DNA from: Stramenopiles sp. TOSAG23-6
Lineage: Eukaryota
Length of the DNA: 33,316 bases
Assembly: GCA_900128565.1 (NCBI GenBank)
Contig: LT635955.1
Coordinates: 1-33,316, forward strand
Reading direction: 5' to 3'
Positions 1 through 33,316 of the stretch are shown here, piece after piece (within the stretch, counting starts at the first letter, position 1; each line of letters begins with the position of its first letter). A program made the translations under genes and the position numbers. The notes below the pieces were generated by a model. The model made no database searches, was not told where the DNA came from, and was given only the letters and a program-made list of their open reading frames with translations.

Positions 1-360
1 CGCAAAGCTGCTGCGAAACGTGTATTACATTCAATGATGTGTCGTTGGAAACATCAACATGAAGCTAATGGTATGCGTGCGTGGAAGGAGCTTGTAAATG
101 TGTTACGCTTAGAAGAACAACGCAACGCCAATAAATTAAGTTTAGAAGAACAACGCAAAGCTGCTGCGAAACGTGTATTACATTCAATGATGTGTCGTTG
201 GAAACATCAACATGAAGCTAATGGTATGCGTGCGTGGAAGGAGCTTGTAAATGTGTTACGCTTAGAAGAACAACGCAACGCCAATAAATTAAGTTTAGAA
301 GAACAACGCAAAGCTGCTGCGAAACGTGTATTACATTCAATGATGTGTCGTTGGAAACAT
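1..360 (+). repeat. Identical 153-bp (51-codon) coding tandem repeat, at least 2.3 copies
   Basis: cgcaaagctgctgcgaaacg begins at 1, 154 and 307, and the units look identical. The array probably extends upstream of the window. Confidence 0.93.
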
Positions 361-2631: not shown

Positions 2632-2973
2632 AAATATATAAATAATTCATTTTTGTCATTTAGATGTAAACTTTATTTGAAACATTTCAGTTATCTGTCC
2701 TTCTCTTAATGAAAGCACAAATGCAAAATGATGCAAAATAATAATTATTCTAAAAATTTAATACAATGCGAAAAATTAGGTCCCGGGTACCACTTGAAAA
2801 AATTAACCGAAAGACAAAAAAGAGCAAAAAAGACAACGAGTGGAGTCTGAGATCTGAGATCCTGTTCTACTACTACACGCGCACACCATTGAATCATTAC
2901 AATTGGTTCTATAGATTACTACATTTTGATTGTAGCATATTTTTACTGTTGAAATACGTATATTTTCTCACCC

Positions 2974-3966: not shown

Positions 3967-4546
3967 TCACATGCGTTATTATCCCTTTATTTATGTTTGT
4001 GTATTTTGGGGATTTTATGTGACCCCGTGTGATTTGACATTTTAATAAATAATTCGTGTGATTTGGCATATGAAGAAGTTTCAACTGTTTTATTATTAGA
4101 ATCTGTTCTTATGATGAGTATTTCTATATTGTATTAAATGCACCATGTATAATTACTAATTATATTGTTTCAAGTTTTTCTTCTTATTTTTTTGTTTAGA
4201 TTTGCGCTAGGTTAGGGTTAGGGTTATGATTCGATTTTTCGTGTTTACCGTTTACGTTTACAGAGAACGGTTTTGCTAATGTACAAAAGATACGTCGTCC
4301 CTACACAACGTCTTAAACTACCTCTAGTATATAATAATAATACGACGACAGTTACTAGAGTAGAGTGTACTTTCTCAAGTTTGTTGAGGTTGTCGAGTGC
4401 GTGGTTTACCTACTTGATTGGTATCGTCTATATCTATAGTCAATAGTGCAATAGTTGCGCAACTTTGCTTTAGAAGCATCCTTTGATCTAGTTTGATTAG
4501 TTGGAAAACAGAAACTTTCAGTTATATTAGCAATATAAGCCATAAA

Positions 4547-6164: not shown

Positions 6165-7802
6165 TTACGAATAGGGGAGATTTTTTATACTTGGGTTCCA
6201 TACTTTAGGCTTCTTGATATTCCATGTTAGTACATCATTCACTTGTTTTTTTTTTTTTTTATGTACATCTCTAGTAAGTGGTCGAAGACCAACGTGCATT
6301 TCTGGTAATGCGGCAATAGACGCAGATACGCTTGCAATAGATCGCATTTGTTGCTGTTTTTGGCGCATTTCACTGAAGCAAGGAAATAATGGTTGTCGTT
6401 TCTGCGTATGTACTCGACTCTCGTTTTGCGATTCTTGTAATAAAGATGGCATTGATCGCGCTGAAGCCATGAATGGTGATGGAGTATTTAAGCGTTCTCT
6501 CATTTGCATTGTTTTTTCATAATAATTTTGTTGACTAAATCGATTACGCTTCGAAGATGTAGAAGAATCAATGGTATGTTTGGAAAATAGATCAAAAACA
6601 AGTCCTCCATATTTTTGAACCTTCGGGGTATACCTGTCAATATCAAAGTACTTGACTCCATTAGAACTTTCTTCGGATTCCAAAGAATTTCTTGATGACA
6701 CCTTTCTTGGTAACGATAGACTATCACTGCAGCTTTCAAATGGAGATTCTGGAAATATTGGATCGGATTGTTCAGTTGTGGTTACTTCATCTGTTATAAA
6801 TATTGGCAATCTAGTACTTTCTGGTTTTTCTTCTTTCTTCTTCTTATTATTAAAATTATTATCTCTACGATTTATATTGTAAATACCAAAGAAATCTTTG
6901 CCAATTTGTCTTTTTTTTTCATTTTGTAGATGCTTCGCATATTGTTCTTGTTTCCCACGCGTCAGCTCTTGATGACGTGAATGTTTCTGGAATCTCTTTT
7001 GATATTGATCCCGATAATTAGGTGATTTGCATTCAAACACCAAGCTTGTTTTGTCGTCAAAACCAAGCTCGTCGGTCACAATTTGTGCATTTATTTTCTC
7101 GTGCTTTTTTATATGAAATGTCGCCGCTAATCGATGGCGCCACACACCAACTCTGCCTTCAATAACCCAAACGCATTCATTGCGCTTCACAAGAGGTATG
7201 CCATTAAATGGTGGAAATTTCATACCTACAAACGGTTCAACAACAATAAATTCTTCTCGTAGTCCTGATATCTTTGAAAATACTTGACAAGGAGTGAGTT
7301 CACTACTCTTTCGGAAACCCAGTTCAATCCAGTCACCAATAGTGGGAAGTTTGCCATCTTGGGCAACATTCTTTCCAGTCTCATCTAATTTAAATTTTGC
7401 TTGGCGTAAATATAAAAAACGGTTGTACCTATCAACTCGATCTTGCCTTGTTGATACTCGTGAGGAATCACTCGGATTTGCAGCATACTTTTCAGGTGAT
7501 TTTCCTCTCACTGTTAATTCCTCTGATCGAATAACTGTGTTGTCGTGTTCTAATCGGCGACTCGCTATTCTTTTTCGATTTTCTTCTCGATGAAATGAAG
7601 TCGCTGCGTCTATAACAGCTTGGTTAACCGTCATTCCAGCAGCAAGCAAAAGACTTCCTAATGGATTTATTGAGCCACGCAAGCGATCTAATCCTGTTCC
7701 AAGATCTGACACACCTTTAGCATATGGTGCAAATTCTGGAGTTCTTGCAAGTAATGATAATCCAGTACGACTAACAAGTCGAAGTGCATTGGTGTTTGTC
7801 AT
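6165..7802 (-). CDS. Hypothetical protein region, likely 3' part of the LRR gene
   Basis: 545-codon ORF overlapping the upstream ORF's stop (ATGA), with no intergenic space and separated only by the N-rich patch. No recognisable domain. Confidence 0.65.
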   Translation of the reverse strand: MTNTNALRLVSRTGLSLLARTPEFAPYAKGVSDLGTGLDRLRGSINPLGSLLLAAGMTVNQAVIDAATSFHREENRKRIASRRLEHDNTVIRSEELTVRGKSPEKYAANPSDSSRVSTRQDRVDRYNRFLYLRQAKFKLDETGKNVAQDGKLPTIGDWIELGFRKSSELTPCQVFSKISGLREEFIVVEPFVGMKFPPFNGIPLVKRNECVWVIEGRVGVWRHRLAATFHIKKHEKINAQIVTDELGFDDKTSLVFECKSPNYRDQYQKRFQKHSRHQELTRGKQEQYAKHLQNEKKRQIGKDFFGIYNINRRDNNFNNKKKKEEKPESTRLPIFITDEVTTTEQSDPIFPESPFESCSDSLSLPRKVSSRNSLESEESSNGVKYFDIDRYTPKVQKYGGLVFDLFSKHTIDSSTSSKRNRFSQQNYYEKTMQMRERLNTPSPFMASARSMPSLLQESQNESRVHTQKRQPLFPCFSEMRQKQQQMRSIASVSASIAALPEMHVGLRPLTRDVHKKKKKQVNDVLTWNIKKPKVWNPSIKNLPYS

Positions 7803-9010
7803 ATTTTCTNTTTTTGTACNAAAAAANGTCTCTGNAGTGAAGAGTCAGGGGCATCTATACCAAACTCACCTATGCGAAGAGTAATATCGAGGGCTGTCCA
7901 AAGACAAATAGCACTTTCATACATTGTATCCCCATCGTTTAATCTTTTTAAAGCATCAACACAAAGTACATTAGCAACGCATACCATTGCATAAGAAGGT
8001 AGTCTCGATAAATTTCTAATTACAGTGGCACTGAGTTTGGAATTTACTTTATCATTTTCAGTGCCTACAACTAAAGGAGCTTTCACAATACTATTTAGAC
8101 ATTTTTCAAAAAGAAGCGACGGCACATGAAACATACTTACTACAACTAATAATGCGCATATATCAGATTGATTCAGCTCGTTACTTTTAGTGATTTGACC
8201 CGATTTAAATTCTAATGATTCATTACACGAAAAGGGAAGCTTTTGAATTGCTTCTATATCGACTTCTGGGAATATGCTTGTAGGATCTGCATCAGGATCA
8301 CCAAGTAACTTGAGGTGTCGAGAATCATGAGCTACTTGACGCAAATATATACGGAAAAGATGCTTCAAACGAAAGTCGTGTATCCATATTGGTTGGGTTG
8401 GTTCTGAAAGGGAAAGATTCAGAAAATCTGATTGATATTCTCCAAAATCAGTTGGCATTTGCCAACCAGTTGAGTTTCCCACATTTGAAACCTTAATCAA
8501 AATTTCTGATGAATTTTTGACACTACTTGATAATGTTGTTTCGCTTCTCTCACACTCGGTGATAAAGATGTCATCTAGTACCCAGATAGTCGTTAATAAC
8601 GATATTACTTTGGAACGATATTCTAATAGAGTCCTATCTTTTCTAAGTTTCCGATTACCTTGCAATACAAGACATAAAATATGCTTTTCTCGGATAGGAG
8701 ATAATGATTGAAACGTCAAGTCGTTGTCAGAAAGATTCAACCAGCCTAGAGCAGGTAGATGTGCCAATGCTCCTACATCTGACAAATAATTGTTCGATAA
8801 ATCTACACGCCAAAGGGACGATACTAATGAAGAAATGGAAGTTAGATGATTATTTCTTAAAAGTAGTGTTGTTAAAGATGAACACTGCTCAATAACTCCT
8901 CCTTCACGAAGCCTTTCTATACCCTTGCAATCTATACGCAAAGCTTGAAGTTTAGAAATTGGCTGCCCTCTAGCCTCCTTTATCAGTAAATCGCTTGAGA
9001 TTTCTCTCAT
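7799..9010 (-). CDS. SDS22-like leucine-rich repeat protein (probably 5' part of a gene continuing into 6165-7802)
   Basis: LRRs LTTLLLRNNHLTSI, LWRVDLSNNYLSDV, LGWLNLSDNDL and LVLQGN followed by an LRR cap (YRSKVISLLTTIWVLD). ATG at 9010. The ORF ends in an N-containing AT-rich patch. Confidence 0.8.
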   Translation of the reverse strand: MREISSDLLIKEARGQPISKLQALRIDCKGIERLREGGVIEQCSSLTTLLLRNNHLTSISSLVSSLWRVDLSNNYLSDVGALAHLPALGWLNLSDNDLTFQSLSPIREKHILCLVLQGNRKLRKDRTLLEYRSKVISLLTTIWVLDDIFITECERSETTLSSSVKNSSEILIKVSNVGNSTGWQMPTDFGEYQSDFLNLSLSEPTQPIWIHDFRLKHLFRIYLRQVAHDSRHLKLLGDPDADPTSIFPEVDIEAIQKLPFSCNESLEFKSGQITKSNELNQSDICALLVVVSMFHVPSLLFEKCLNSIVKAPLVVGTENDKVNSKLSATVIRNLSRLPSYAMVCVANVLCVDALKRLNDGDTMYESAICLWTALDITLRIGEFGIDAPDSSXQRXFXVQKXKI

Positions 9011-9284
9011 GTTTGAACACAAGATAATCTTGACTTGTTGATCTTTGACAAGTCTCTCTATCTTCGACAGTTACGAAGCACGCGGTCATGTAACGTTCTC
9101 GAATCACTTTTTAGTGATCCCAGTTGTCACAATTCGTATATATAGTAGTCAATCAATCACAAAATAATTGAGTGCTTCAATCACTGGCATTTTGATATTC
9201 GACAAATCCATGAAGGGCTAAATCATGTGCCTGCCATTACGTGCAATACGCTCGTTTACCGTATCAACAGTTCATTAATAGTTC

Positions 9285-20332: not shown

Positions 20333-23300
20333 ATGGATGCTGATGCACATATAGCAATGAAAGAATATAGGGGTGATGATTTGGATTCCGACTCGGATTC
20401 TGATGACGCTGTGGACGAATCGATGGCTGTGGACGAATCGATGGCTTTGGACGAATCGATGGCTTTGGACGAATCGATGGCTTTGGACGAAGACGGGTCA
20501 AGCACTATTGCTGTAGGTGGTTTTACAACTTCTACCGATGAATTTGAAGAGCCACCAAAAGAAGAATCTAAAGGTTCAAACGAAGAGTATGGTATCGATG
20601 ATGATCTCGACGACTCTGATAGCGAGTCTTCCATAGCTGAATCCTCAGATTCCTCTTCTGAGAGTGAATCTGACGATCCTGCTACTGCTGTAACGCTAGG
20701 TTGGCGACAGAGCTCTCGTTCTCGCGGAGGGAGCAAAGTATCATACGCAGAAGTGAATGAAAATGGGAAGAAGATTAAGAAAAAGTGGCGAACGAAGAAA
20801 AAGTTAACGAAAGCAGATCGTCGGCGAATAGAACAAAGAAAATCTCTTCCAAAGAAACAACAAATTCTGATTCCTCCACCTGGCGCAAAGATTCCTTTAG
20901 CAATTGAGCGTATTCTTGGACGTCGAGAATACCACCCAGATAGTTCGCCATCTTCAACACGCCATGCAATGACGTCTTCTCCTACTCATTCTCACTCTCC
21001 GCGTAAACATTTTGGATCTGTCCCTCGAGAGCAATATTTGGTAAAATGGAAAAAACGCAGTTATATACATGCAACCTGGGAAGATGTTGACGTCCTCCTA
21101 TCTTGGCATCCAAAAGGTCCATCTAAAATGAAGCAATTGATCCAAATTTTCTTGAAGCGTCAAGAGCGTGATCGTTGGAGTGGTGCTGTTATCGAAGAAA
21201 ATAATTTTCCGCAAGAGTACATTGAACCTGAGAAACTTCTTGAGTGGAAAGATTTTACACCAGCAGCTTCAGAAAGTTCATCAGCTGTGGGTAAAACGTC
21301 CGATGTAAATGATAAAGAAAAGAACACTACGACATTAGAAATAACTATTCCTAAAGCTGCTGCGCTAGATCCAAATCGTAGCACTATGTATGTTTTATTT
21401 TTTTTTNAANTCGANTTTTTTTTCGTACNAANTTTTGTACCTAACAAAAAAAAAATGAAATATTTTTCCAAAACACATTGAAGAGGAATCACGACATCGA
21501 AGGCGACTTTACTTTGGTTCGAATGAACCTAAAGGACGTTGGTTTCTTGTGAAATGGCATGGTCTTCAACATGAGGAATGTACGTTTTTATTTGAATTTA
21601 AAAATTATTTTTCCTACCTTAAAAATTCAATTGTAGAAATATATTTTTAACTCTATTTTTTTCTACAATATTTTTTTACTATACATCAACGTGGGAGTCA
21701 GAGGCCAATTTAGTTCACACAGGAAGTTTTAAAACTGCATTAAACATATGGAAAACTCATCAAAGTGTTATTCAGTATAAGAAAGCACCACCTCGTCCAT
21801 CTGCCACCAGTTTCGTTAAAATGAATGAGTCACCGGTATACTCTACACGGAATGGTGTTGGTGGTAAAAAAATTCAATTAAAACTTCGCGATTATCAGCT
21901 CACAGGTGTTAATTGGTTGCTCTTTAATTGGTATAATCGTCGAGGGTCAATATTAGCAGATGAAATGTATGNTTTTTTTTTTTTTGTGTGATTTTTTTTT
22001 CGTACGAAATTTTGTACCTAACATTTTTTTAGATTTGTTTTTGAAATATTTTTCACAAGACATGGGGTTAGGTAAGACTATTCAAACAATTGCGTTTCTT
22101 CGTGCTCTTAGCTCTGGGAGAGATAGTCAAGTTCGAGGACCTTTTCTAATTGTTGGCCCATTATCATGTATTAATCAATGGTATCGTGAGGTATCAGAGT
22201 GGTGGTCAGAAGCGAACATTATTTTCTATCATGGTAACGCTGCATCACGTCGCGTCATCCAAGAATATGAATGGTGGAAACGGGAGAAGACTGGTGTAAA
22301 TACTCCGGAATATAACTTTCAAGTAGTTGTAACTACATATGAAATGTGTACAATGGATTCGACCTTTTTGAGACGGGTTCCTTGGCAATGTGTTGTAGTT
22401 GACGAAGCTCACCGTTTAAAGAACCCTAATTCCAAATTAGCTCTGGAGCTTAGTCAATATCATCGAGAACATGTTGTTTTGTTAACTGGGACTCCATTGC
22501 AAAATAATATGAGTGAATTATGGGCTTTATTACATTTCACTGATGCATCGAAATTTCCCAGTCTTGACAAATTTTTAGATAATTTTGGCAATTTGAAAAA
22601 TAAAGGGCACAAAGCTGTCTCGCAGCTCCATGAAGTGCTCCGGCCATTTCTTTTACGGCGTTTGAAAGAAAATGTAGAAAAAAATCTTCCGCCAAAGGAA
22701 GAGACTATTGTTGAAGTACCTCTTATGCCATTACAAAAACAGTATTATCGTGCTATTTATGAACGTAATACGGATTTTCTATATAAAGGCGCTACTGCGG
22801 CGAATGGACCATCATTGATGAATGTTGTTATGGAATTACGTAAATGTTGTAATCATCCATATCTTATTCGAGGTGCAGAAGAATGGTTATCCTCGGGTAT
22901 TGATCTGAATGATTCAAAGGCTATATTTAATAGATTGGTTGAAGTATCTGGAAAAGTTGTATTACTGGATAAATTGCTTCCCAAACTTAAGGCTGGTGGT
23001 CATAAAGTTTTAATATTTTCACAAATGGTGCGCATGCTGAATATTTTAGCTGATTGGACAAAACATAAAGGTTTTGATACGGAGCGGATCGACGGTAGTA
23101 TACGTGGTAGTGAACGTCAAAATTCGATTGATCGGTACATGCAATCTCCTGATTCATTTCTTATGCTTCTTTCTACTCGCGCAGGTGGTGTTGGTATTAA
23201 TTTAACTGCTGCTGATACTGTTATTATTTTTGATAGTGACTGGAATCCACAAAATGATATTCAAGCTATGGCGCGTGCTCATCGAATTGGTCAAACAAAA

Positions 23301-26300
23301 CCTGTCAAAATATATCGGTTGTTAACGGCTAAAACATTTGAAGTTGAAATGTTTGAAAGAGCTTCAATGAAGCTTGGTTTAGATCAAGCTGTTTTGACTA
23401 ATGTTAATGATGGTACAAAAAGTAGTGGTGGTAATAATGGACAACATAAGTTAAGTACATCTGAAGTTGATGGTCTGTTGAAGCGCGGTGCGTACTCAGT
23501 ATTTCAAGATAGCGGCGATCATGCGGAATCCAAAGAGTTCTGTGCTGACGATATTGATGGAATTCTTGCTCGCTCTTCTTACATCAAAAAAGAAGATAAA
23601 GAAACACAAGAAAAACGTAGTCAAGCGAATAAGTTTTCTACAGCATCGTTTGTATCCTCGACAGCTGGTGATGTCGATATTGATGACCCCGATTTTTGGT
23701 CTAAAACTGCGGGTTTAGCTGGACCAAAAGAAGACGAGACTGTCACCAAATCTAAGGAATTGCTTGATTTAGAAGAATCAGAAGAAGAACAAAGTGATTT
23801 TGAAGAGCTATCTGATGACGAGATTGATTTTTACGACGATAAAGTAGTACCCGGTTCTCGCGACTTTGAGACAAATTTAGCTCTTTGGGGTTATGGAAGA
23901 TGGAATAAGTTTAACGAGAATGGTACTCATTCGGAAGCGAAAGTAAAATCACTCGCTGCGAAAATTATTCAAGAGTATTATAATCTTGCCGATCGAAAAA
24001 TAGATGAATTTGCAATTGATAATAAAAATAGGCCTCTCATGAAACGCATTCGCTCTGTGATCGAATCAGAAGCCAATAAGAGTATTCCTGTATCTAATGA
24101 AAACCCCGACAAAATGGATATTGATAGTCCAAATGAAGCGGTACCTTCTTCTGAGAAACCATCAAAAGTTGCTGTTGATATTTCTGAGTTGCAGTGGATG
24201 CCAGAAACCAAAGTTACTCGTGCCGTTGCTTCATTGCACCGCCAAGAAATGATGTGGCATTTACAACAGATTGTTCGACGTGCTGTACTTAATCAAATTA
24301 GTGATTTACAGAGTGGCTCCGATGTTCTCGAAGAAGCAATACGGGGAATTTCTGATGGAGTTTTAGATGCTACTAAACTTTGTCGTGATTTGCAGAAACT
24401 AGCATGTCCTCGATCTTCAAAAGGTTACAAACAACCTGCATTTTGGTGGGGTAATGAAGAGGATGGAGCTCTTCTTCTTGGAGTATTTTTACATGGTTGG
24501 GGTAAACATACAGAAATTCGTAAGAATAAGTTATTTAGTTTACGACGAAAATATGAAGAGTTGAGATCTGCGACGTCTGTGTTTGGCAATGATGAACCCA
24601 AAATAAGCGAGGAGGAATTATTGGCCAGGAAAATTGCGGAACATGAAGTTGCTATTAAAAAGCAACGTGAAGTCGAGGAAGCTGAATGGGAGTCAATTGA
24701 AACTGCACGGGTTGCTTCGCTCCATGAAAGATTTAGTACAGGTCTCGCTAGTGTTGTTATGTTCAAGGGGAAACCCGTTCGTGTCCGATGTAAGTTAAAT
24801 AACAAGAAACTTAATGTTGACCCAGTACAGTTGTTTACTAAACGAAGCGTTCCTCCTCATGGTTGGCAATGGAAACGAGATAGTTTAAAGAAAATCGTAG
24901 TTAGTAAAACTGTTCCATGGCCTAGTGATGAAACTCTGAATAAATACACGTGTTGGCTTCTTACACGTACGAAACATATTTCTGGAAATTCTCGTGGCCA
25001 AGCGAGACGTGCGCGTAGTGAGAAGCGTCAATTAGATCATTTACGTAATTTAGCTATTCAAAAAGCTATTAATGAAAGTTCCTGGGGTAGGTCAGAAACC
25101 ACTGCATTGATACGCATTCTCTGTCGAGTTGGAGCACCACCTGATTTAGGTAAAGCAAATAAACATGCAGCAAAGGAAATGGAAAATGATGCCACTTCAA
25201 ATGTAGTAAATGTTCCTGACAACAATGAAGTATTAAAAGCTCCATCATTTAGTTGGAAGGCTATCGTAGAAGAGGCCCAGATTTCAGGGAAAACGCATAC
25301 GGATGCTTCGCGATATTTTTATGACGAGTTATTTCCCCATGCGGTAAGTGTAATAGAAGCTAATGTGCCGTTGAATCCACAAGGTTCTTCGACCATAATG
25401 CCCCAGCTTTCACCAACTGATTATTCCGAAAGAGGAGTTAGGATAGCAAAGAAATTTGTCGAGCGCATACGTATCTTACGCGCTTTACGCAAACTCTGTG
25501 GTATGACATCAGATAAAGGAGTTGGAAATTGCGATGATTTAAAAAAAATACTGCTATACGATGCCAATATAGAGGATGTTCCTGTGTGGTGGGTACCTAA
25601 AATTCACGATTTTGCTATGTGGGTACAACTGGCAAATCATGGATTTGAGAAGTCTGCTGGAAAAGGAAAGCGTGCCGAAGTAGTAGATATATACAAGCTT
25701 CAAATGGATAGCGCTTCACCATTTTTCACACCTACACTTGCGGCGCATGTCAAACAAGAATTTGAAAAGGTAAATGGTAAGGATTTTTTTATTAAAGGTT
25801 CTCCAAATTTGACCCCTGAAGCTATTGATGAAAATATTGCGAATTGGTTTTTTAAAGTTGCAACCGAAATGCCGTCTCCTAAAGAAAGTATGAAACGTCT
25901 TCGCCGCCATGTTGGAGTGGATTTAGTTTTGTTGGATGGTAAGGAAGTTCCAACTCTGAAAACTCTCGGTGGTGGTGGTGGTGGTTCTTTTTGCAAGCTG
26001 TGGCGAAAGTTGTCTGGTACTACTGCGAAACAACGAAGAAAAGGCGAGAAGAGACAGAGAAAGTCAGTCAAGGCATGTATTTCATGGATTATTACACAAA
26101 TTGAAAATGCGGAAAAAACGAAATTGAAAGAAGCTAGGGCTGCTCAACGTGCTGCAGACAGAGCCGCAAAACGAGATGAAAAAATAGCCAGGCTTGTAAA
26201 AGATAAACTTGACTCTATGATTCGTAAATTGGAAGGCGAAGAGCAAGCGGCACAAAGAAAAATTGTAGCTCAACAAAAAATAGTTTCTTCTGTTCTGTAT

Positions 26301-27470
26301 AGTATCATTCTGCGCGTTGAAAAATTGGAACGGGCCGATAAGAGGGCGAAAGATCGTGAGTTTTTACGCAATGCTAAAGCACACGAGAGAGAAAAAATAA
26401 ATTTGATCAATGCTCAAATTCGAGCACATCGTAGCATGATGAATAAAAAAAGAAAGAAGAAAGGACCACGCGGGAAGGTTTCTCTTCATGGTCTCATCAC
26501 AGCGGGCCTTCTTGTACCTGGAACTGGCGTCTTTTATATTGATTACCGGGATAAACAGTTTAGAGCTTCTTTAGCAGAAGATGGCACTTTGATCGATGAT
26601 GAAACAGGCGAAAAGTTTCTTACTCCTTCCGGTTGGAGTATTAAAGCGAAACGTCGTCTCATGCCTTCAAAACAAGCAGATGATGGCTGGAAGAGTGTTA
26701 AATATGAAGGTTCTGCTTTGGAACTTGTGAAAAAAGACTATCTCATTAATATTTTAGGACCAATGAATGGCATTCCTCCACCGCCTCCTGAAGAAAGTGT
26801 TTGCGTTGAAGATGAAGAGAGGTTATCAGAGCTTCTTAATTTAAAAGAAACTCTTGAAGCTGAAGCAATTGCGAATAAGGGAAAACCTCGACCTCTCCCA
26901 GCGAATCCTAAAATGACTATAACGTTTTCAAAGAGACCTTCTGGTGGATGGACGGCTGTGCCTTTTAAGAGTGGAAATAAAAAGCGACCAAGAAACGACA
27001 GTCTAGGTGGCTCTGCAAATAAAAAGTCAAAGACTGGAAATGGTATATCAAAATCTCATAGTAATAATACATTTGTATCCGGTCTAGGTCGAAAAAAGAG
27101 AAAGCCGAGTGGCTCCGCCGAAAAGAAGAAGAAAAAGAAAAAGAAGAAAAGAAAGAAGGCTAGTGATGCTAAAATTGACCATTCAATTGCAGTACAACAC
27201 AATTTGGCTTTATGGAAAAAATGGAATAGTCAATTACGCCGATCATCGAAATATGGAAGTACGACTGATGTCATGAATATGCTGGAAAAGTTAAAAAATA
27301 GTAAGGTTGCTTCTTTGTCGGTTCTTTCGGAAGTTGGCATTGGGAAAACTGTTGGAAAGTTGGCTCGCAAGCATGCTGATGAAAGTATTCGCCAGACAAG
27401 TGAACTTTTAGTGAAACGATGGCGTGAAGCTGCTCAAGCTGAGACAAATGGAATTACTGGTGGGATTTAG
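20333..27470 (+). CDS. CHD-family (CHD6-9/Kismet-like) chromatin remodeller. Exons 20333-21387, 21479-21579, 21687-21966, 22064-27470
   Basis: Chromodomain 1 (QYLVKWKKRSYIHATWE), chromodomain 2 (WFLVKWHGLQHEE/STWE), LRDYQLTGVNWLLFNWYNRRGSILADE/MGLGKT, DEAH box, LLSTRAGGVGINL, DSDWNPQNDIQAMARAHRIGQ. C-terminal RAMA and TFIIS-N-like domains. The frame is restored by removing three GT-AT inserts. Confidence 0.93.
20408..20491 (+). repeat. 18-bp coding minisatellite (A(V/L)DESM x about 4.7)
   Basis: gct(g/t)tggacgaatcgatg repeated at 20408, 20426, 20444 and 20462, partial at 20480. Confidence 0.93.
21388..21478 (+). other. Non-canonical GT-AT intron A (91 nt) in CHD gene
   Basis: actAT|GTATG...ttttgTACCTAAC...gaaatatttttccaaaacaCAT|tgaa joins NRST-I-EEESRH in frame with chromodomain 2. 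An in-frame AG exists about 24 nt downstream but would skip two nearer AGs. Confidence 0.8.
21580..21686 (+). other. Non-canonical GT-AT intron B (107 nt) in CHD gene
   Basis: gaggaAT|GTACG...aatatttttttactataCAT|caacgtgg restores chromodomain HEE-S-TWESE. Nearby AG acceptors give TAA (21636), a frameshift (21697) or TAG (21701). Confidence 0.88.
21967..22063 (+). other. Non-canonical GT-AT intron C (97 nt) in CHD gene
   Basis: gatgaaAT|GTATG...tttcgtacgaaattttgTACCTAAC...gaaatatttttcacaagaCAT|ggggttaggtaag restores the invariant ILADE-M-GLGKT. The AGs ending at 22032 and 22059 are out of frame. Confidence 0.93.
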
Positions 27471-27602
27471 TTATATTTCATTTCAGATAAAATTATTTTC
27501 AAGTAATACAGTATTTTTATGGGCTCAATGATAAGTTTATTGTATTATATGTGACGTATATTTTTCTCTGCGCTGTAATCAAAATAGTTAGTAGTGATAT
27601 AT

Positions 27603-29060
27603 TTATGTCATTGTCTTTGTGCTCTTCTGTCGCATCATTTGAAGAAATTCACTGTAGTCAACTTCTGAGTCGTCCCCTCCGACTTCAAGGAGCATTTTTT
27701 GTACCTTTTCATCATCATACTGAACACCTAGAACCTGTTGTAGATCTTCTTTTGAAATGGCACCACTTCCGTCAACGTCAAGTTTTGTGAATGCTTCCTT
27801 GAGCCGTGCTTCATCCATGTACGTTTTTTGGTCTAGACAAGCAGTCACAAATTCAGATAACTCCAATTTGCCATCATTTGTTGCATCTAAACCTTGGAAT
27901 ATTTTATCTACTTCAGCCTCGGTTATTGCACCTGTTTTTGTGATGGCATCTCGAAGTTCATGCATCGTAACAAATCCATCGTAGTTTGTATCCATGGCTA
28001 AGAATTGTGCTTGTATTTCTTGAATCTGACTTGGAGTTAGACTGAAAGCAACAGTTGCAACGGCCATTCTTTTAAATTCATTCAAGTTCTTGAATTTAAT
28101 CATATTTTCACAAATTTCTCTATTTAGTTGAACTTGTGGGTGATCAGCTTGTTCTTTGATGATCCATTTGTGATTCAACGCTTGTCGTGCTGTAAGGCGT
28201 TTTGATGGATCTTTTACTAACAGCTTATTAATAAAGTCTTTCCCATCATCTGAGACTTTTCCCCATACAGGAGAGAACATTGTATATTCACCTATCCTTA
28301 CGTTTGAAATAATCTCAGAATCTGTCTCTCCAGGAAAAGGAGGGTTACCTGATAAAAGCATGTACGTAATCACACCAATTGACCAGAGATCGCACGCGGA
28401 GGTGTATTCGTGGTCAAGGACTTCAGGGGCAATGTAATAGGATGTCCCAACAACAGAAGCCATCTTTGTACTTGACATACATTTTACTCTTTTGGAAAAC
28501 CCAAAATCAATCATTTTTAGAACGCTATCTTCTGCCTTGGTTGCAAATATGAAGTTCTCTAATTTGAGATCTCTGTGAACCATATTTTTGTTGTGAATAT
28601 AATTCAAAGACTGCAGCATCTGTAAAACAACATTTGCTGCAGCAGCCTCATTGAAGCGCGAGTTTTCAGAGTCTAGTAGTCGATCAAATAACTCACCTCC
28701 CGTGCAAAGCTCCATAATCATATACATATTTTGGCCCGTTTCTTCAAATGCTTCGTACAAACGCGCAACATTTGGGTGATCCATTGAAGCAAACAATGTA
28801 ATTTCATCACGTATTTGCTTCAAGCTAGTGGCACTATTCGAACCAATTTTCATTACTTTTAGAGCAAACTTCTGGCCATCGCTTCTACGAGAAACGATCG
28901 AAACTTTACCTGAGACACCTTCTCCCAAGAAATCTGTATTGTCAACTCCAGAATACTTTTTCCGAATTGCAGCGCAGTCACAAATATGATACTTCACAAG
29001 ATTTTCGTGCATTGTTCTGTTTTCATTTGAAATAGCTGCCTTTCCTCCACATATTCCCAT
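27603..29060 (-). CDS. Calcium-dependent protein kinase (CDPK)
   Basis: MGICGG (likely myristoylation/palmitoylation), LGEGVSGKV, HRDLKLENF, DFG, GTSYYIAPEVL, a junction region and four EF-hand-like loops (DTNYDGFVTMHE, DATNDGKLELSE, DVDGSGAISKED, DDSEVDYSE). Intronless. Confidence 0.95.
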   Translation of the reverse strand: MGICGGKAAISNENRTMHENLVKYHICDCAAIRKKYSGVDNTDFLGEGVSGKVSIVSRRSDGQKFALKVMKIGSNSATSLKQIRDEITLFASMDHPNVARLYEAFEETGQNMYMIMELCTGGELFDRLLDSENSRFNEAAAANVVLQMLQSLNYIHNKNMVHRDLKLENFIFATKAEDSVLKMIDFGFSKRVKCMSSTKMASVVGTSYYIAPEVLDHEYTSACDLWSIGVITYMLLSGNPPFPGETDSEIISNVRIGEYTMFSPVWGKVSDDGKDFINKLLVKDPSKRLTARQALNHKWIIKEQADHPQVQLNREICENMIKFKNLNEFKRMAVATVAFSLTPSQIQEIQAQFLAMDTNYDGFVTMHELRDAITKTGAITEAEVDKIFQGLDATNDGKLELSEFVTACLDQKTYMDEARLKEAFTKLDVDGSGAISKEDLQQVLGVQYDDEKVQKMLLEVGGDDSEVDYSEFLQMMRQKSTKTMT

Positions 29061-29372
29061 AATTGGTTGCTTGGATAACGTCAGCAGTTACCGGTGAAAT
29101 TAAGTTTATGATTCGATAGAGGAGTATTTGAAGAAGGGTACCAGTTGACGTTGAACGTCGATCTTCTTGGACGTATGTAAGATCTGAAGATCTTTGATTT
29201 TAAACTGAAAAAAAAACTATTGATTTCGTGTATTCGGAGAAGAGTCCAACCAATTCGTAACTGTTGCTGTTCTAGTATTCTTTCTTTTCCTTCTTGTTTA
29301 GAGCAAGTCAAGAAGTCCTCAATGAGTCATTGCATACACTAATTGTTTCTCCTATTGCATTATCTCAGGGCC

Positions 29373-30934
29373 ATGCCCCCTAAATCAGATCGCTATGTGA
29401 AGTTGTCAAAGGAAGATCAGGGAATTTTTGTTCCACGACCTATTGAGCAGCAAGTGAGACGAGATGCTTACAACCCAATGAGTGTTGATGACTTTCTAGA
29501 TGAATATGAGGAAAAGTATATGGACGAAGATTTTATGGCTGTTGTTGCAGATGGAAAACTTACTAATACGGAAAGGCTTAAAATGCAATTGCGTAAGGAG
29601 AACGGTAAATATAAACGGGTAAATTTAACAAGTCAAATAATGTCAAGAGCAGAAAATATAAGGGGAAAGGAGTTGCAGGAAGTTAAAAAAGAATTTAAGA
29701 TGAAAACGTTTCATGAGAAACAGAAACGTCGAATTTCTATAGCAACAACTAATGAACCATTAGCAAAAAAAATATTACGTTTTTTATCATGTGGCCCAAC
29801 ACCAGGGAAACTACCACATCCAAAAGTTCAAGCAAAATTTCTACCTAAAATTGTTCGTGCTGACTATGTACGTTTTCATCTCAATTTTTTGTCTAAATAT
29901 TTTTTTCATACGAAATTTTGTACCTAACATTTTTTTTTTTTGAAATATTTTTTCATAATCCATGACTCGGTTTCAAAGGCTTTGAAGTTCAACCAACCAG
30001 TGAATTATTGCGACAACTTGAATCGATCTGGTTTATATTTAGCAACATTCTATGGTTATACACATATAGTTCAGCTTCTTTGCGCATATAATGCTGATCC
30101 AAACATATGTGAACTTGAAAAGGAACAAAATGCAGGGCATGTGGCCGCAGAAAAAGGCTATGGTGACATTCTAGATTATTTATTAGACCGAGGTTTAGAT
30201 TTAACAATGGGAGACAAAATGGGTCTCACCCCCTTAATGCATGCAGCTAATGCGGGTCATTATAAAACATGCATAATGATGTATGTTTTATTTTTTTTTT
30301 TAAACAAAAAATCGAATTTTGTTTTCGTACGAAATTTTGTATTTAACAAAAATATTGAATGTAAAATATTTTTCAAAATACATAGTGGAATGTGATATTA
30401 AGATAGACATGGTCGATAATAGGCGGTGGACAGCCTTGCATTATGCAAGTCAAAAAGGGTTTTATAGAATCTGTAAATATTTGGCCGCGCAAGGATGTAC
30501 GTTTTCATAATGAATTTTTACGAAATTGTTTTTTCGTACTAAATTTCGTACCTAACATTTTTTTTACTAAAAAAAAAATATTTTTCACATTACATGGGAC
30601 TCATATTGTAAAGACATGAATGGGCAAACACCATTAGATATTGCAGAGATGGAGCTAGATAATATTATAAAAAGTGCGTTTCGTTGATGAATTTCAAATT
30701 AATTTTGTTTTTATACGAAATTTTGTATTAATACCTAACGAATCTCGAATCTAAAATAATGTTCACAATTTATGTACTCGAGGATTATCCCCTGAAGAAG
30801 CAAAACTTTTCAATGAGAAAAATGCAATTATGATAGAAAACTATGAAAATGTAATAAATGTGCTTAATACTGATATGACTGATTGGAGAGCAGTTGAAGA
30901 ATTAAAGAGACAAAAAGAATTAAACAATAGGTAA
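29373..30934 (+). CDS. Ankyrin-repeat protein. Exons 29373-29867, 29964-30280, 30384-30496, 30596-30673, 30774-30934
   Basis: After removing four inserts there is a continuous ORF with consecutive ankyrin repeats (RSGLYLATFYG, QNAGHVAAEKG, LTPLMHAANAGH, WTALHYASQKG, GQTPLDIA) ending at TAA 30932-30934. Confidence 0.85.
29868..29963 (+). other. Non-canonical GT-AT intron D (96 nt) in ankyrin gene
   Basis: gactAT|GTACG...cgaaattttgTACCTAAC...gaaatattttttcataatcCAT|gactcg contains an in-frame TAA and joins RAD-Y-DSVSKAL. An in-frame AAG at 29978 is possible but would delete 5 residues of the ankyrin-like helix. Confidence 0.75.
30281..30383 (+). other. Non-canonical GT-AT intron E (103 nt) in ankyrin gene
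   Basis: atgAT|GTATG...ttttcgtacgaaattttgtatttaac...aaaatatttttcaaaataCAT|agtggaa gives GHYKTCIMIVECDIKIDMVDNRRWTALH with exact ankyrin spacing. The adjacent AG (30384-30385) leads to TGA three codons later. Confidence 0.88.
30497..30595 (+). other. Non-canonical GT-AT intron F (99 nt) in ankyrin gene
   Basis: caaggAT|GTACG...tttcgTACCTAAC...aaaatatttttcacattaCAT|gggactca gives GWDSYCKDMNGQTPL, matching the spacing of G-A-D-V-N-A-K-D-x-x-G-x-T-P-L. Contains an in-frame TAA. An in-frame AG at 30613 would delete 6 residues of the repeat. Confidence 0.85.
30674..30773 (+). other. Probable GT-AT intron G (100 nt, divergent family member)
   Basis: aaaa|GTGCG...tatacgaaattttgtattaaTACCTAAC...aaaataatgttcacaattTAT|gtactcga has the same motif-to-end spacing as the other copies. 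An in-frame GAG acceptor at 30782 is an alternative. Confidence 0.65.
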
Positions 30935-31004: not shown

Positions 31005-31865
31005 TTAAATTCCCATTCCTCCAGTGACTTCTAATATTGTTCCCGTTACATAAGACGCATGAGGTGAAACCATCATTAATACACCACCTGCTGCTTCTTC
31101 TGGTGTACCAATACGTGCAAGAGGTATACTCGCAGCGATAGCTTGATCACTCGCGACAATACCACGTGACTTCGAAGGCATTCCCTGAACAACTTCTTCA
31201 CCATTCGCTAACACTACAGTTTCAATTTCTCCTTCATCTGCAGCCTGGGTCATTCGAGTATCTATCCAACCATATGCAACAGCATTACATCGAATGCCAA
31301 AGGACCCCCACTCTTTTGCGACAGTACGAGTAAGTCCTAATATAGCAGTCTTACCTGAGGCATAGTTTGCCTGACCAATACTACCATGAAGACCAGATGT
31401 AGATGATATATTGATTATACAACGATCTGCAGGGTCAATACCAGAAGATTTCTCCTGTTTTCCTATTTCACGCATATATGGAGTGGCAGCTCGGATCATC
31501 TTAAAAGGAACAGTAGCGTGCATATCAATGATAGACTGCCACTGTTCGTTACTCATTTTGTGCAACATTCCATCCCAAGTAAAACCAGCGTTGTTCACAA
31601 GTACATCCACTGAACCTTTACCAAATATAGGATTTGTTGCGGCCAATTGCATGAGTGTATCTGGGAAGTCCTCTTCTAAGACACTACCAGGAAATGCAAG
31701 TGCCTGGCCACCAGCGTTGTTAATTTCCGCAACGACTGCTTCGGCAGGTTCTTTGCTAACGTCATTGACGACAACAGACGCACCTTGTCTAGCTAATAAT
31801 TTAGCAGTTGCCGCACCAATTCCTCGACCAGCACCTGTTACTATGGCAACTTTTCCAGTGAGCAT
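31005..31865 (-). CDS. Short-chain dehydrogenase/reductase (3-oxoacyl-ACP reductase-like)
   Basis: TGAGRGIG, NNAG, catalytic S and YASGK (YxxxK), GIRCNAVAYGWIDT, IPLARIGTPEEAA. Intronless. Confidence 0.93.
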   Translation of the reverse strand: MLTGKVAIVTGAGRGIGAATAKLLARQGASVVVNDVSKEPAEAVVAEINNAGGQALAFPGSVLEEDFPDTLMQLAATNPIFGKGSVDVLVNNAGFTWDGMLHKMSNEQWQSIIDMHATVPFKMIRAATPYMREIGKQEKSSGIDPADRCIINISSTSGLHGSIGQANYASGKTAILGLTRTVAKEWGSFGIRCNAVAYGWIDTRMTQAADEGEIETVVLANGEEVVQGMPSKSRGIVASDQAIAASIPLARIGTPEEAAGGVLMMVSPHASYVTGTILEVTGGMGI

Positions 31866-32752
31866 GGCGTGCTATTCAAATGAAGGAGAAATAACAAAGA
31901 AACAGGTGTAGCGTTTTCAGTCCCACAAGTGATACTCTCTTTGTGTCAAGTTTGTTGGTGTTATGGCATATCTCTAGCAATTTTGACTCGAAGTTCGGAA
32001 CTGGTCAGTCAAAAAAAAAGATAAAAAAAAAAAGATAAAAAAAAAAGGGAAAAAGGGGGGTCATATTAGATCTTATTGCCCCCGCACCATGCGCCCGTCG
32101 CAGTATTATATGAGAGGGGTAGTCTGAATTGAGATGAAAACTGATTCGTCGTGAAACACGAAAAATTTGAATTTCTCAATTTATTGCTGCTTCCCTTTAA
32201 TTTTTGCGCTTGCAAAAAGACATTACTGATACATTTTCCGCATTGATTGCTTTTAAAGCGAGAGATGAGTGAAATCTATTAGGGTCAGTTGAAAAGCCTT
32301 CAGCACCGATGCACTGGTGATGACTGAAGCTCTGACGGAGAGTTTGTACTATTCCGCTATGCGTATTAGTATAATGCACTCAACCCGCAATGGACCTGTC
32401 GATTGAAGCCTATATGAATGTATCACTTTGATATATGAAATATTTGCATTAGATGTGATTAGACCTTGCACCGTCGGTTTATCTTGGTAAAGTGTCCACC
32501 ATATTGTTGATAATATGACTGTGTGACTACTTTTCGATGATTAGACTGAGGGAGGATTTCAGTAGGCAATTGGAAACGCATTAGTTCATGAGTATAGTCG
32601 TTTGACTGTAGTACATTAGACTGATTGCATTACAAATTACACACTGAAAGAAAACACTGGAACATTTATTAGTTTAAATATTCCTGTTTTCACAACGACT
32701 TGTGTATAGTATTGTACTTTAGTATGGTATTATATACAAGGCATATGATAGT
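31866..32752 (+). other. Spacer expected to hold the Pol I promoter and 5' ETS (and the divergent SDR promoter)
   Basis: Positional inference: non-coding DNA directly upstream of 18S. Includes an A-tract repeat (A9-GAT-A11-GAT-A10-GGG-A5-G6) at 32011-32060. Confidence 0.6.
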
Positions 32753-33316
32753 AACCTGGTTGATCCTGCCAGTAGTCATACGCTCGTCTCAAAGATTAAG
32801 CCATGCATGTGTAAGTATAAACAATTTTATACAGTGAAACTGCGAACGGCTCATTATATCAGTTATAGTTTATTTGATAATACCTTACTACTTGGATAAC
32901 CGTAGTAATTCTAGAGCTAATACATGCATTAAATTCTCTTCTTCTGGTGGAGATGCGTTTATTAGATATCAACCAACCCTTTTCGGAGGCCTTTGGTGAG
33001 TCATAATAACTGTGCGGATCGCAGAGGCCTTTGTGCCGGCGATGAATCATTCAAGTTTCTGCCCTATCAGCTTTCGATGGTAGTGTATTGGACTACCATG
33101 GCGGTGACGGGTAACGGAGAATTAGGGTTCGATTCCGGAGAGGGAGCCTGAGAAATGGCTACCACATCCAAGGAAGGCAGCAGGCGCGTAAATTACCCAA
33201 TCCCAATTCGGGGAGGTAGTGACAATAAATATCAATGCGGGGCACACAGTGTCTTGCAATTGGAATGAGTACAATTTAAATCCCTTAACGAGGATCGATT
33301 GGAGGGCAAGTCTGGT
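32753..33316 (+). rRNA. 18S rRNA: 18S (SSU) rRNA gene, 5' part (3'-truncated by window)
   Basis: Starts AACCTGGTTGATCCTGCCAGTAGTCAT, and contains conserved GATTAAGCCATGCATG, CCGGAGAGGGAGCCTGAGA, CCAAGGAAGGCAGCAGGCGCG and GAGGGCAAGTCTGGT. The CATACGCTCGTCTCAAAG variant suggests a stramenopile. Confidence 0.99.

What the first reader, a model, noticed from the sequence alone, without database searches (positions are those of the whole stretch)
21388..30773. Family of non-canonical GT-AT introns (3' splice site YAT instead of YAG)
Seen in sequence: seven 91-107 nt AT-rich inserts (21388-21478, 21580-21686, 21967-22063, 29868-29963, 30281-30383, 30497-30595, 30674-30773) interrupt two otherwise intact genes. 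All begin GTATG, GTACG or GTGCG. Five carry TACCTAAC and the others have variants such as TATTTAAC. All end CAT (six) or TAT (one) about 9-10 nt after an AATATTTTTC-like box. Established knowledge: GTAYG and CTAAC are normal U2-type donor and branch signals, but the acceptor is almost invariably AG. GT..AT is the only boundary register shared by all seven. No unambiguous GT-AG intron is visible in the window. Inference: this organism routinely splices GU-AU introns, implying altered 3' splice-site recognition or another precise excision mechanism.
Basis: partly seen in the sequence, partly recalled or inferred. Interest (0 to 1): 0.96.

Follow-up and report, generated by a model that had tools for sequence, protein, structure and literature searches.

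The report
Repeated introns ending in AT, not AG
Two genes of an uncultured marine protist are interrupted by seven copies of one short repeated intron that starts like a normal intron but ends in AT instead of the near-universal AG, which would mean unusual splicing and explains why a public gene model of this locus is wrong.

Summary
Seven related AT-rich inserts of 91-107 nt lie at the stated coordinates, three in a CHD/SNF2 helicase gene and four in an ankyrin gene. The nearest named proteins are from MAST-3 stramenopiles.

For 6 of 7 inserts the product aligns to orthologues better than any GT/GC-AG or AT-AC alternative within 40 nt. Insert 1 lies in a variable region and ties.

Only the GT..AT register fits all seven. 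A 2-nt AT repeat also allows AT..AC in five and AT..CC in one.

Every copy has GTRYGTTT, a TAAC box 34-42 nt from the 3' end, a T-run, an invariant A at -9, and YAT.

Marine RNA libraries hold hundreds of contigs of the same family. No listed contig shows a spliced junction, so splicing and its exact register are inferred.

Best reading: a transposon-like ("introner") family of U2-type introns. The element supplies the donor and branch box, and the 3' AT is the duplicated target. I found nothing in print for MAST lineages. A public model of this locus forces GT-AG and deletes conserved motifs.

Verdict: new variant of a known kind; interest 0.72.

The parts
20477..27470 (+). CHD-type chromodomain/SNF2 helicase gene (host of inserts 1-3). 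The start is taken from where the public model P0003 begins.
   Evidence: Pfam finds Chromo, SNF2-rel_dom, Helicase_C, RAMA and Med26. The frame is open for 2291 codons after removing the three inserts. Orthologue P0002 is 70% identical. P0003 maps to the locus.
21388..21478 (+). Insert 1, 91 nt, GTATG...CAT, contains N's. Equivalent registers are -2 to 0.
   Evidence: It lies in a variable protein region. A GT-AG alternative (21392-21485) scores 1503 against 1501, so this junction rests on the family alignment.
21580..21686 (+). Insert 2, 107 nt, GTACG...CAT. It is the most divergent copy: it lacks the CGTACGAAA core but keeps the 5' box, TTTAAC and the 3' box.
   Evidence: The product restores the chromodomain motif ..EESTWESE... 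Relatives have C where this product has S.
21967..22063 (+). Insert 3, 97 nt, GTATG...CAT. It contains an unused TAG 15 nt and an unused AAG 37 nt after the end of the TAAC box.
   Evidence: The product restores SNF2 motif I, ILADEMGLGKT, exactly as in P0002. The best GT-AG alternative scores 1459 against 1501.
29373..30934 (+). Ankyrin-repeat gene (host of inserts 4-7).
   Evidence: Pfam finds Ank families. The frame is open for 398 codons after removal. Orthologue P0121 is 65% identical.
29868..29963 (+). Insert 4, 96 nt, GTACG...CCAT. The -2 register would be AT..CC.
   Evidence: There is an in-frame stop at 29925. The product has no indel against P0121, and the best GT-AG alternative scores 1388 against 1411.
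30281..30383 (+). Insert 5, 103 nt, GTATG...CAT, with the TATTTAAC variant.
   Evidence: The product gives ..IVECDIK.. as in P0121 and keeps the 33-residue ankyrin period. In run X3 a contig (record 24) stops matching at 30278 with 27 unplaced letters. This is only a weak hint of a spliced form.
30497..30595 (+). Insert 6, 99 nt, GTACG...CAT.
   Evidence: The product gives ..AAQGWDS.., identical to P0121. There is an in-frame stop at 30508. The best GT-AG alternative scores 1364 against 1411.
30674..30773 (+). Insert 7, 100 nt, GTGCG...TAT, preceded by AA rather than AT. Equivalent registers are 0 to +2 only, so it excludes AT..AC.
   Evidence: The product has the same length as P0121 across the junction. 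An AT-AC alternative shifted 7 nt upstream scores 1410 against 1411 but does not fit the family alignment.

Best explanation
The seven inserts are copies of one short, AT-rich, mobile-element-derived intron family (an 'introner'). The host genome is compact and intron-poor and belongs to a MAST-3-type marine stramenopile. I read them as U2-type spliceosomal introns.

The element itself supplies three signals:
- a strong donor, GTAYGTTTT;
- a CTAAC-type branch box 34-42 nt from the 3' end;
- a T-rich tract ending in a fixed box, TTTTTC-A(-9)-N5-YAT.

The last two intron bases, AT, are the downstream copy of a 2-nt AT direct repeat that flanks the element, as a target-site duplication would. Cutting at |GT...AT| therefore removes the element plus one repeat copy and restores the original reading frame.

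Between the TAAC box and the end there are 4-7 other AT dinucleotides, and in one copy a bypassed TAG. So the 3' cut cannot be chosen by scanning for a dinucleotide. I infer that it is set by the fixed-distance 3' box.

Shown: the family exists, its boundaries, and that removal in this register restores orthologue-collinear ORFs. Inferred: that removal happens in RNA by the spliceosome, the exact register, the branch site, and the transposon origin.
For: Family:
- 7 copies align with 63% mean column identity and conserved 5', core and 3' blocks.
- The core matches 5 times against 0.00 expected.
- 2,341 contigs from 4 marine RNA runs (3 studies) were laid: 769, 682, 859 and 31. Summed depth is 2671-5665 in the two core-holding bins in runs X1-X3 (54.1 and 20.3 in X7). 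Depth is at most 13 in the bins without inserts or with only the edge of one, and 119-233 (X1-X3) in the bin holding inserts 5 and 6.

Boundaries:
- 9 of the 15 listed joints land exactly on the A of the AT before GTAYG.
- No alternative letter at 10% or more is listed at any of the seven terminal T positions (table 3).

Need for removal: 5 of the 7 lengths are not multiples of 3, and a stop lies in or just after every insert. Removal gives ORFs of 2291 and 398 codons.

Register:
- Motif I, IVECDIK and QGWDS are restored exactly.
- GT..AT is the only register shared by all 7.
- The intronic AT is 7 of 7, while the exonic copy is 6 of 7.

Signals: G+1, T+2 and G+5 are 7 of 7. A-9, A-2 and T-1 are 7 of 7. 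Y-3 is 7 of 7.

Precedents from papers (passages read):
- In Micromonas introners the 3' splice site is co-opted from the target duplication (PMC11282704).
Against: - No spliced junction of this locus was seen. None of the 15 listed joints is a predicted junction, 23 joints were not shown, and the runs are contigs that can contain DNA.
- A database search with the 105-aa exon found no transcript-derived fragment.
- The AT repeat makes AT..AC an equal-product register in 5 of 7. As I recall it, an A...C terminal pair is the better-established compensatory combination in the spliceosome.
- The direct repeat is only 2 nt, and the terminal inverted repeat is only 4-6 nt and absent in insert 7. Evidence for a transposon is therefore thin.
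- No copy lies outside a gene or on the other strand in this window. Both host genes are on the plus strand, so orientation relative to transcription is not tested.
- At insert 2 the product has S where two relatives have C. A +5 shift would give C.
- No other genomic copies could be fetched. The 6 metagenome, 1 genome and 1 viral pattern hits were all chance matches.
Confidence: 0.5

Rival explanations
1. The introns are the same, but the true register is two bases upstream: AT...AC. The A+1/C-1 terminal pair is already known to work in spliceosomes, and GTAYG sits at +3.
For: The -2 register gives the identical mRNA and reads AT..AC in 5 of 7. The AT before GT is part of the conserved unit: 9 of the 15 listed joints in RNA contigs start at that A. 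A at exon position -2 is 7 of 7.
Against: Insert 4 would be AT..CC, and insert 7 cannot shift at all because it is preceded by AA. The donor consensus GTAYGT would sit 2 nt out of the usual position relative to the cut. The downstream AT is invariant while the upstream one is not, which is the opposite of what this register predicts.
Confidence: 0.15
2. They are transformed U12-type (minor-spliceosome) introns. The minor spliceosome tolerates GT-AT, and its 3' site is set by a short fixed distance from a branch site. Here that branch site would be the TTTTTCA box with A at -9.
For: The minor spliceosome can splice GT-AT productively (PMC1557818, passages). [quoted passage not shown] Here the donor conservation extends to +9 (TTTT at +6 to +9 in 6 of 7), and an A sits invariantly at -9 after a T-run.
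Against: Position +5 is G in 7 of 7, and +4 is C in 4 of 7. The U12 donor has T at +4 and C at +5. The CCTAAC box lies 34-42 nt from the end, outside the U12 range as I recall it. No minor snRNA could be looked for: no genome is held, and the window has only an 18S match.
Confidence: 0.12
3. The inserts are removed by something other than the spliceosome. Candidates are precise DNA excision like ciliate eliminated sequences, or structure-guided RNA excision like euglenid or Amoebophrya non-conventional introns.
For: The ends are flanked by a direct repeat and show a short inverted repeat, ATGT..ACAT, in 5 of 7. There is a perfect 12-nt palindrome, TTTCGTACGAAA, in the core. The end is non-AG.
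Against: RNA folds are weak, with z-scores from -3.2 to +0.55 in the 5 inserts folded (inserts 1 and 3, which hold N, were not folded), and the ends are not paired with each other. Complementarity is 4-6 nt against the 8-20 nt reported for Amoebophrya (PMC7789003). GT, G+5 and TAAC are invariant, which fits spliceosomal signals. Family copies with flanking unique sequence are present in RNA libraries, including poly-A ones. As I recall it, no nuclear dimorphism is known in stramenopiles.
Confidence: 0.08
4. Nothing is removed. The two genes are pseudogenes broken by repeat insertions, or the terminal T is a sequencing error for G.
For: No direct spliced read was seen. The assembly has N's inside inserts 1 and 3.
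Against: Both genes keep long intact frames on either side of seven diverged inserts (63% mean column identity). Seven independent identical T-for-G errors are implausible. No alternative letter is listed at those positions in contigs from three studies. Exons are covered at 99-100% identity in RNA libraries (table 8).
Confidence: 0.05

Closest known systems
Introner elements of Micromonas pusilla and other aquatic protists (transposon-derived intron families)
   Same: Many similar short introns sit at unrelated positions. They are flanked by a short direct repeat. The element supplies the donor, and the acceptor dinucleotide comes from the duplicated target (PMC11282704, passages).
   Different: Those families end in AG and have clear terminal inverted repeats and 3-nt duplications. 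Here the repeat is AT, the intron ends in AT, and the inverted repeat is only 4-6 nt. Introner surveys accept only AG or AC acceptors and rely on annotation (PMC12130899 methods), so a family like this would be missed.
Non-canonical introns of the tunicate Fritillaria borealis (AG-AC, AG-AT)
   Same: They are mobile-element-derived and spliceosome-removed, many end in AT, and the 3' site is formed from a duplicated exonic motif (PMC11282704; abstracts listed).
   Different: In Fritillaria the 5' end is non-canonical (AG). Here the 5' end is a textbook GTAYGT, and only the last base departs from the rule.
Amoebophrya non-canonical introns / introners
   Same: A marine protist with a repeated intron family, direct repeats over the boundaries, and a mis-annotation risk (PMC7789003).
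   Different: Amoebophrya has no conserved terminal dinucleotides, 8-20 nt inverted repeats that form a hairpin, and no detectable U1. Here GT and AT are fixed, no hairpin joins the ends, and the donor looks U1/U6-compatible.
U12-type introns with GT-AT ends (human, mouse, Physarum)
   Same: The same terminal dinucleotides, and a 3' site a short fixed distance after a conserved box.
   Different: The donor here is GTAYGTTTT, not RTATCCTT. The CTAAC box is 34-42 nt upstream.
Trichomonas/Giardia-type introns (recalled from memory, not checked here)
   Same: A GTAYGT donor and a rigid 3' motif with a fixed short distance to the cut.
   Different: Those end in AG and are few. They are not a repeat family.

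Membership tests
U2-type spliceosomal intron | Donor GTRNGT-like at the 5' end | tested here: met
   GTATG in 3, GTACG in 3 and GTGCG in 1. G+1, T+2 and G+5 are 7 of 7.
U2-type spliceosomal intron | Branch box CTRAY followed by a pyrimidine-rich tract | tested here: met
   CTAAC in 5 of 7 and TTAAC in 2 of 7, 34-42 nt from the 3' end, followed by T-runs. Use as a branch site is not shown.
U2-type spliceosomal intron | Acceptor YAG | tested here: not met
   CAT in 6 and TAT in 1. No equal-product register ends in AG.
U2-type spliceosomal intron | Removed from RNA through a lariat | tested here: inconclusive
   None of the 15 listed joints is a predicted junction, and 23 were not shown. One contig ends at 30278 with 27 unplaced letters.
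Introner / MITE-derived intron family | Many similar copies at unrelated gene positions | tested here: met
   7 copies in two unrelated genes. 2,341 laid RNA contigs are concentrated on the cores.
Introner / MITE-derived intron family | Target-site duplication | tested here: inconclusive
   An AT direct repeat in 6 of 7, and GT in insert 7. Two bases are too short to prove duplication.
Introner / MITE-derived intron family | Terminal inverted repeats | tested here: inconclusive
   Only ATGT(A)..(T)ACAT, 4-6 nt, in 5 of 7. Insert 4 pairs over 3 nt, and none is present in insert 7.
Introner / MITE-derived intron family | Presence/absence at orthologous sites in relatives; an autonomous partner element | not testable with these tools
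   Only protein models of relatives are available (P0002, P0121). They are collinear across all seven sites. No genome is held.
U12-type intron | Donor [AG]TATCCTT | tested here: not met
   G at +5 in 7 of 7 and C at +4 in 4 of 7.
U12-type intron | Branch box close to the 3' end, no AG requirement | tested here: inconclusive
   An invariant A at -9 after TTTTTY could serve. The CCTAAC box is too far away.
U12-type intron | Minor snRNAs in the genome | not testable with these tools
   No genome is held. The only Rfam hit in the window is 18S.
Hairpin-type non-conventional introns (Amoebophrya, euglenids) | Stable pairing of the two intron ends | tested here: not met
   In the minimum-energy folds of the 5 of 7 inserts that were folded, the two ends are not paired with each other. 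Energies are -6 to -14.9 kcal/mol. Inserts 1 and 3 hold N and were not folded.

The most novel reading that the evidence does not exclude
A whole lineage of abundant ocean protists (MAST-3 type) carries hundreds to thousands of U2-type introns that end in AU, and its major spliceosome no longer needs the 3' AG. The cut is instead placed by measuring from a conserved box. This would be the first lineage in which GU-AU is a main intron class, created by one mobile element whose AT target duplication became the acceptor.
Probability: 0.35. Interest if true: 0.85.

Novelty: new variant of a known kind. Interest (0 to 1): 0.72.

Why it matters
Splicing mechanism. The AG at intron ends is among the most constant signals in eukaryotes. 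Here a natural family has a textbook donor and branch box and only the last base changed. It would be a clean system for asking how the second catalytic step picks its site.

Intron gain. The family would add a case in which a mobile element's target duplication, rather than selection for AG, dictates the acceptor.

Annotation. Canonical-only gene finders break on these genes. The public model P0003 maps to this locus in blocks of 81-100% identity (gaps where it skips sequence lower the figures). It deletes part of a chromodomain and of helicase motif I and translates part of insert 3. The paper describing MAST-3 single-cell assemblies reports low gene counts and too few complete protein matches to train a predictor (PMC5778133, passages). 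A link between that and this family is my conjecture. Gene inventories and lifestyle inferences for these uncultured grazers may be affected.

Tried and rejected
- Whole-genome search: no genome is held for this window.
- More genomic copies: pattern scans of metagenome contigs gave 6 loci, genome contigs 1 and viral contigs 1. None has the 5' or 3' boxes, so all are chance matches.
- Earlier findings of the scan: nothing relevant.
- RNA evidence: 4 runs of contigs were laid. The listed joints are dominated by cross-matches between family copies and by an internal repeat of insert 4 (AATATTTTTTC occurs twice in it). None is a predicted splice junction, and uncovered parts say nothing. Several contigs link a copy's 3' end to a copy's 5' start, with the letters between them unknown. 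I do not read this as circles or tandems.
- Transcript-derived protein fragments spanning a junction: none found with the 105-aa exon.
- Homology test of the 38-nt GT-AG candidate on the minus strand: only one partial hit (P0122, 220 aa), which does not span the junction.
- Shift +5 model, with GTACG exonic. It would give the conserved C at insert 2. It is rejected for inserts 5 and 6 by hand comparison of the shifted products with the orthologue sequence, and it does not fit the family alignment.
- Downstream-AG acceptors: lower orthologue scores for inserts 3, 4, 6 and 7, none among the five best-scoring alternatives listed for 2 and 5, and a tie only for insert 1.
- Hairpin or bulge-helix-bulge excision: not supported by the folds.
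- A bacterial promoter/terminator scan was irrelevant to a eukaryote.
- Supplements of the papers are closed. They could hold intron statistics for the MAST assemblies.


Full report
**What is there**

The window is a gene-dense eukaryotic contig of about 37% GC with long uninterrupted ORFs. It ends in the first 564 nt of an 18S rRNA gene. No whole genome is held for it.

Two plus-strand genes hold the finding:
- A CHD-type helicase with chromo, SNF2, helicase-C, RAMA and Med26 domains.
- An ankyrin-repeat gene.

The nearest named proteins are from MAST-3 stramenopiles. They are a single-cell-assembly model (P0003), Incisomonas (P0007), and an unnamed EukProt relative at 70% identity (P0002). 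I therefore take the organism to be a MAST-3-type marine heterotrophic stramenopile.

They are 91-107 nt long and have 16-24% GC. They form one sequence family. Aligned, they share three blocks:
- a 5' block, (A)(T)GTRYGTTTT;
- a core, TTTTCGTACGAAATTTTGTA-CCTAAC, clearly recognisable in six and degenerate in insert 2;
- a 3' block, AAATATTTTTC-A-N5-YAT.

Position by position:
- Exon -2 is A in 7 of 7, and exon -1 is T in 6 of 7.
- Intron G+1, T+2 and G+5 are 7 of 7.
- A-9, A-2 and T-1 are 7 of 7, and -3 is C in 6 and T in 1.

The motifs are far above chance:
- The core matches 5 times against 0.00 expected.
- GTAYGTTT occurs 9 times against 3.07 expected.
- AATATTTTTY occurs 12 times against 1.35 expected.

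A profile of the seven finds no further copy in the 33 kb on either strand at E below 0.1. No other AT-poor island interrupts an ORF.

**The inserts must be removed, and where**

Five of the seven lengths are not multiples of three. Reading through meets a stop inside the insert in five cases and just after it in two.

I tested the junctions against orthologues: P0002 for the helicase and P0121 for the ankyrin protein. For each insert I varied only that insert over every GT-AG, GC-AG and AT-AC pair within 40 nt that keeps the frame, then scored the whole product.
It ties only with its own equal-product AT-AC register.
- Insert 1 lies in a variable region. There a GT-AG pair scores 1503 against 1501.
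- The best GT-AG alternatives score 1459 against 1501 (insert 3), 1388 against 1411 (insert 4), 1364 against 1411 (insert 6) and 1397 against 1411 (insert 7).
- The joins restore helicase motif I (ILADEMGLGKT). They also restore IVECDIK and AAQGWDS exactly as in the orthologue, and they keep the 33-residue ankyrin period.
- Inserts 4 and 7 give no indel.

One result goes against the reading. At insert 2 the product has S where P0002 and P0007 have C. A +5 shift would give C, but the same shift is excluded at inserts 5 and 6, and it does not fit the family alignment.

**Register**

Six inserts are preceded by AT and end in AT. Registers -2, -1 and 0 therefore give the same mRNA, and so does +1 in three of them.
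- Register -2 reads AT..AC in five and AT..CC in insert 4.
- Register -1 reads TG..CA in those six.
- Insert 7 is preceded by AA and allows only 0 to +2.
- GT..AT is thus the only register shared by all seven. No register of any insert ends in AG.

The downstream (intronic) AT is invariant, while the upstream (exonic) copy varies once. That is what the GT-AT register predicts. It rests on a single informative copy.

**Evidence from RNA libraries**

Four marine metatranscriptome runs from three studies hold parts of the stretch. They are kept as contigs.
- Exon pieces match at 99-100% identity with depth 2-7, so the organism is present in the runs.
- The two bins that hold the cores of inserts 3 and 4 have summed depths of 2671-5665 in three runs (54.1 and 20.3 in X7), and 2,341 contigs were laid in all. 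The bins without inserts, or with only the edge of one, have depth at most 13. The bin with inserts 5 and 6 reaches 119-233 in X1-X3. The tool warns that summed depth is not a copy number. I conclude only that hundreds of distinct family contigs exist in these communities.
- Contigs from other loci stop resembling the window at 21478, 21480 and 29964.
- 9 of the 15 listed joints start at the A of AT-GTAYG.
- The repeated unit therefore runs from that AT to the terminal AT.
- No alternative letter at 10% or more is listed at any terminal T.

Against the reading:
- None of the 15 listed joints is a predicted splice junction, and 23 more were not shown.
- The libraries can contain DNA.
- The only hint of a spliced form is one contig that stops matching at 30278 with 27 unplaced letters.
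- A protein search with the 105-aa exon found no transcript fragment.

**How it most likely works**

The architecture is that of a U2-type intron in every respect but the last base. It has a GTAYGT donor, a CTAAC-type box 34-42 nt upstream of the end, T-runs, and then YAT.

The AT direct repeat and the short inverted ends, ATGT..ACAT in 5 of 7, recall introner elements. In those, the element supplies the donor and the acceptor comes from the duplicated target (PMC11282704, passages). Here the duplicated target is AT, so cutting at GT...AT removes the element plus one repeat copy and restores the gene.

Between the TAAC box and the end there are 4-7 other AT dinucleotides. In insert 3 a TAG 15 nt after the end of the TAAC box is bypassed. 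The site therefore cannot be chosen by scanning for a dinucleotide. The fixed spacing of the 3' box, with its invariant A at -9, suggests a measured distance. This step is inference.

RNA folds are weak and do not pair the two ends with each other (5 of the 7 inserts were folded). This argues against a hairpin-guided mechanism like that proposed for Amoebophrya (PMC7789003, passages).

**Rivals**

- AT-AC register. It fits 5 of 7 and uses a terminal pair that I recall as well established. Inserts 4 and 7 do not fit.
- A transformed U12-type family. The minor spliceosome tolerates GT-AT, and in Physarum the branch A lies at -12 to -10 with donor [G/A]TATC[C/T]TTT. Here the donor is conserved out to +9 and an A sits at -9. 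But +5 is G and +4 is often C, and the snRNAs cannot be checked.
- DNA-level or other non-spliceosomal excision.
- No removal, or sequencing error.

I rate the last two as unlikely, for the reasons given in the rival entries.

**Is it known?**

GT-AT ends are known in two forms. One is rare single U2-type introns. The other is a minor class of U12-type introns (PMC1557818 and the Physarum preprint, passages). Lineages rich in transposon-derived non-canonical introns are also known: Fritillaria, Amoebophrya, euglenids and Polarella (review passages).

I found nothing on unusual introns in MAST lineages:
- Searches gave no such paper.
- The main text of PMC5778133 has no occurrence of 'splic' or 'canonical'. 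Its gene finding used Genewise, est2genome, SNAP and GAZE.
- PMC8163842 and PMC12614181 have no text on introns.
- Supplements are closed and might hold intron statistics.

Introner surveys accept AG or AC acceptors and depend on annotation (PMC12130899 methods passage). The public model P0003 maps to this locus in blocks of 81-100% identity, lowered by the gaps where it skips sequence. It uses forced canonical introns that delete TWESEANLVHTGS and part of motif I, and it translates part of insert 3.

**Verdict**

The inserts are real and non-random, and they almost certainly are introns with a non-AG end. The best reading is an introner-type U2-like family with GT-AT ends. Splicing itself, the register and the branch site remain to be shown. 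I rate it a new variant of a known kind, with interest 0.72.

Noticed in passing
window 7832-7869, minus strand: A possible 38-nt canonical intron (GTGAGTTTGG...CTGAC...CACTNCAG) would join ORFs 9070..7871 and 7831..6168 in frame. It lies among four N's, so a frameshift from poor sequence is equally possible.
   Followed up: partly
window 20477-27470 versus protein P0003: A public gene model of this locus forces GT-AG introns. It skips conserved chromodomain and helicase motif I residues, translates part of insert 3, and also cuts spurious introns out of the long uninterrupted exon.
   Followed up: yes
cores of inserts 1, 3 and 5 (e.g. window 21998-22009, 30323-30334): The core contains a perfect 12-nt palindrome, TTTCGTACGAAA. 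It also repeats the donor pentamer GTACG. Possible roles are a protein-binding site of the mobile element or a small hairpin.
   Followed up: no
window 21388-22063 and 29868-30773: All seven inserts sit in two clusters of about 0.7 and 0.9 kb in two genes. The other roughly eight genes of the window have none. Start-to-start spacings are 192, 387, 413, 216 and 177 nt, loosely reminiscent of nucleosome-scale spacing.
   Followed up: no
joints, e.g. 21476/21478 or 29959 to 30279: Several short RNA contigs link the 3' end of a family copy to the AT-GTATG start of a copy. The letters between them are unknown. Tandem copies, very short exons, circular introns and assembly-graph artefacts are all possible.
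   Followed up: no
window 32753-33316: The 5' part of an 18S rRNA gene lies about 0.9 kb from a short-chain dehydrogenase gene (31005-31871, minus strand). Protein-coding genes therefore directly abut the rDNA.
   Followed up: partly
window 1-1280 and 20408-20497: There are in-frame tandem repeats. 153-nt units, two of them identical, and related 182-nt units lie in the first ORF. An 18-nt unit is repeated four to five times near the start of the helicase gene.
   Followed up: no
window 26439-26744 (approx.) and 27279-27428 (approx.): The CHD helicase carries a RAMA domain and a Med26/TFIIS-type helical bundle at its C-terminal end. Relatives P0002 and P0003 share this architecture, while most other hits (oomycetes, animals) do not; P0092 shares the RAMA domain.
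   Followed up: no
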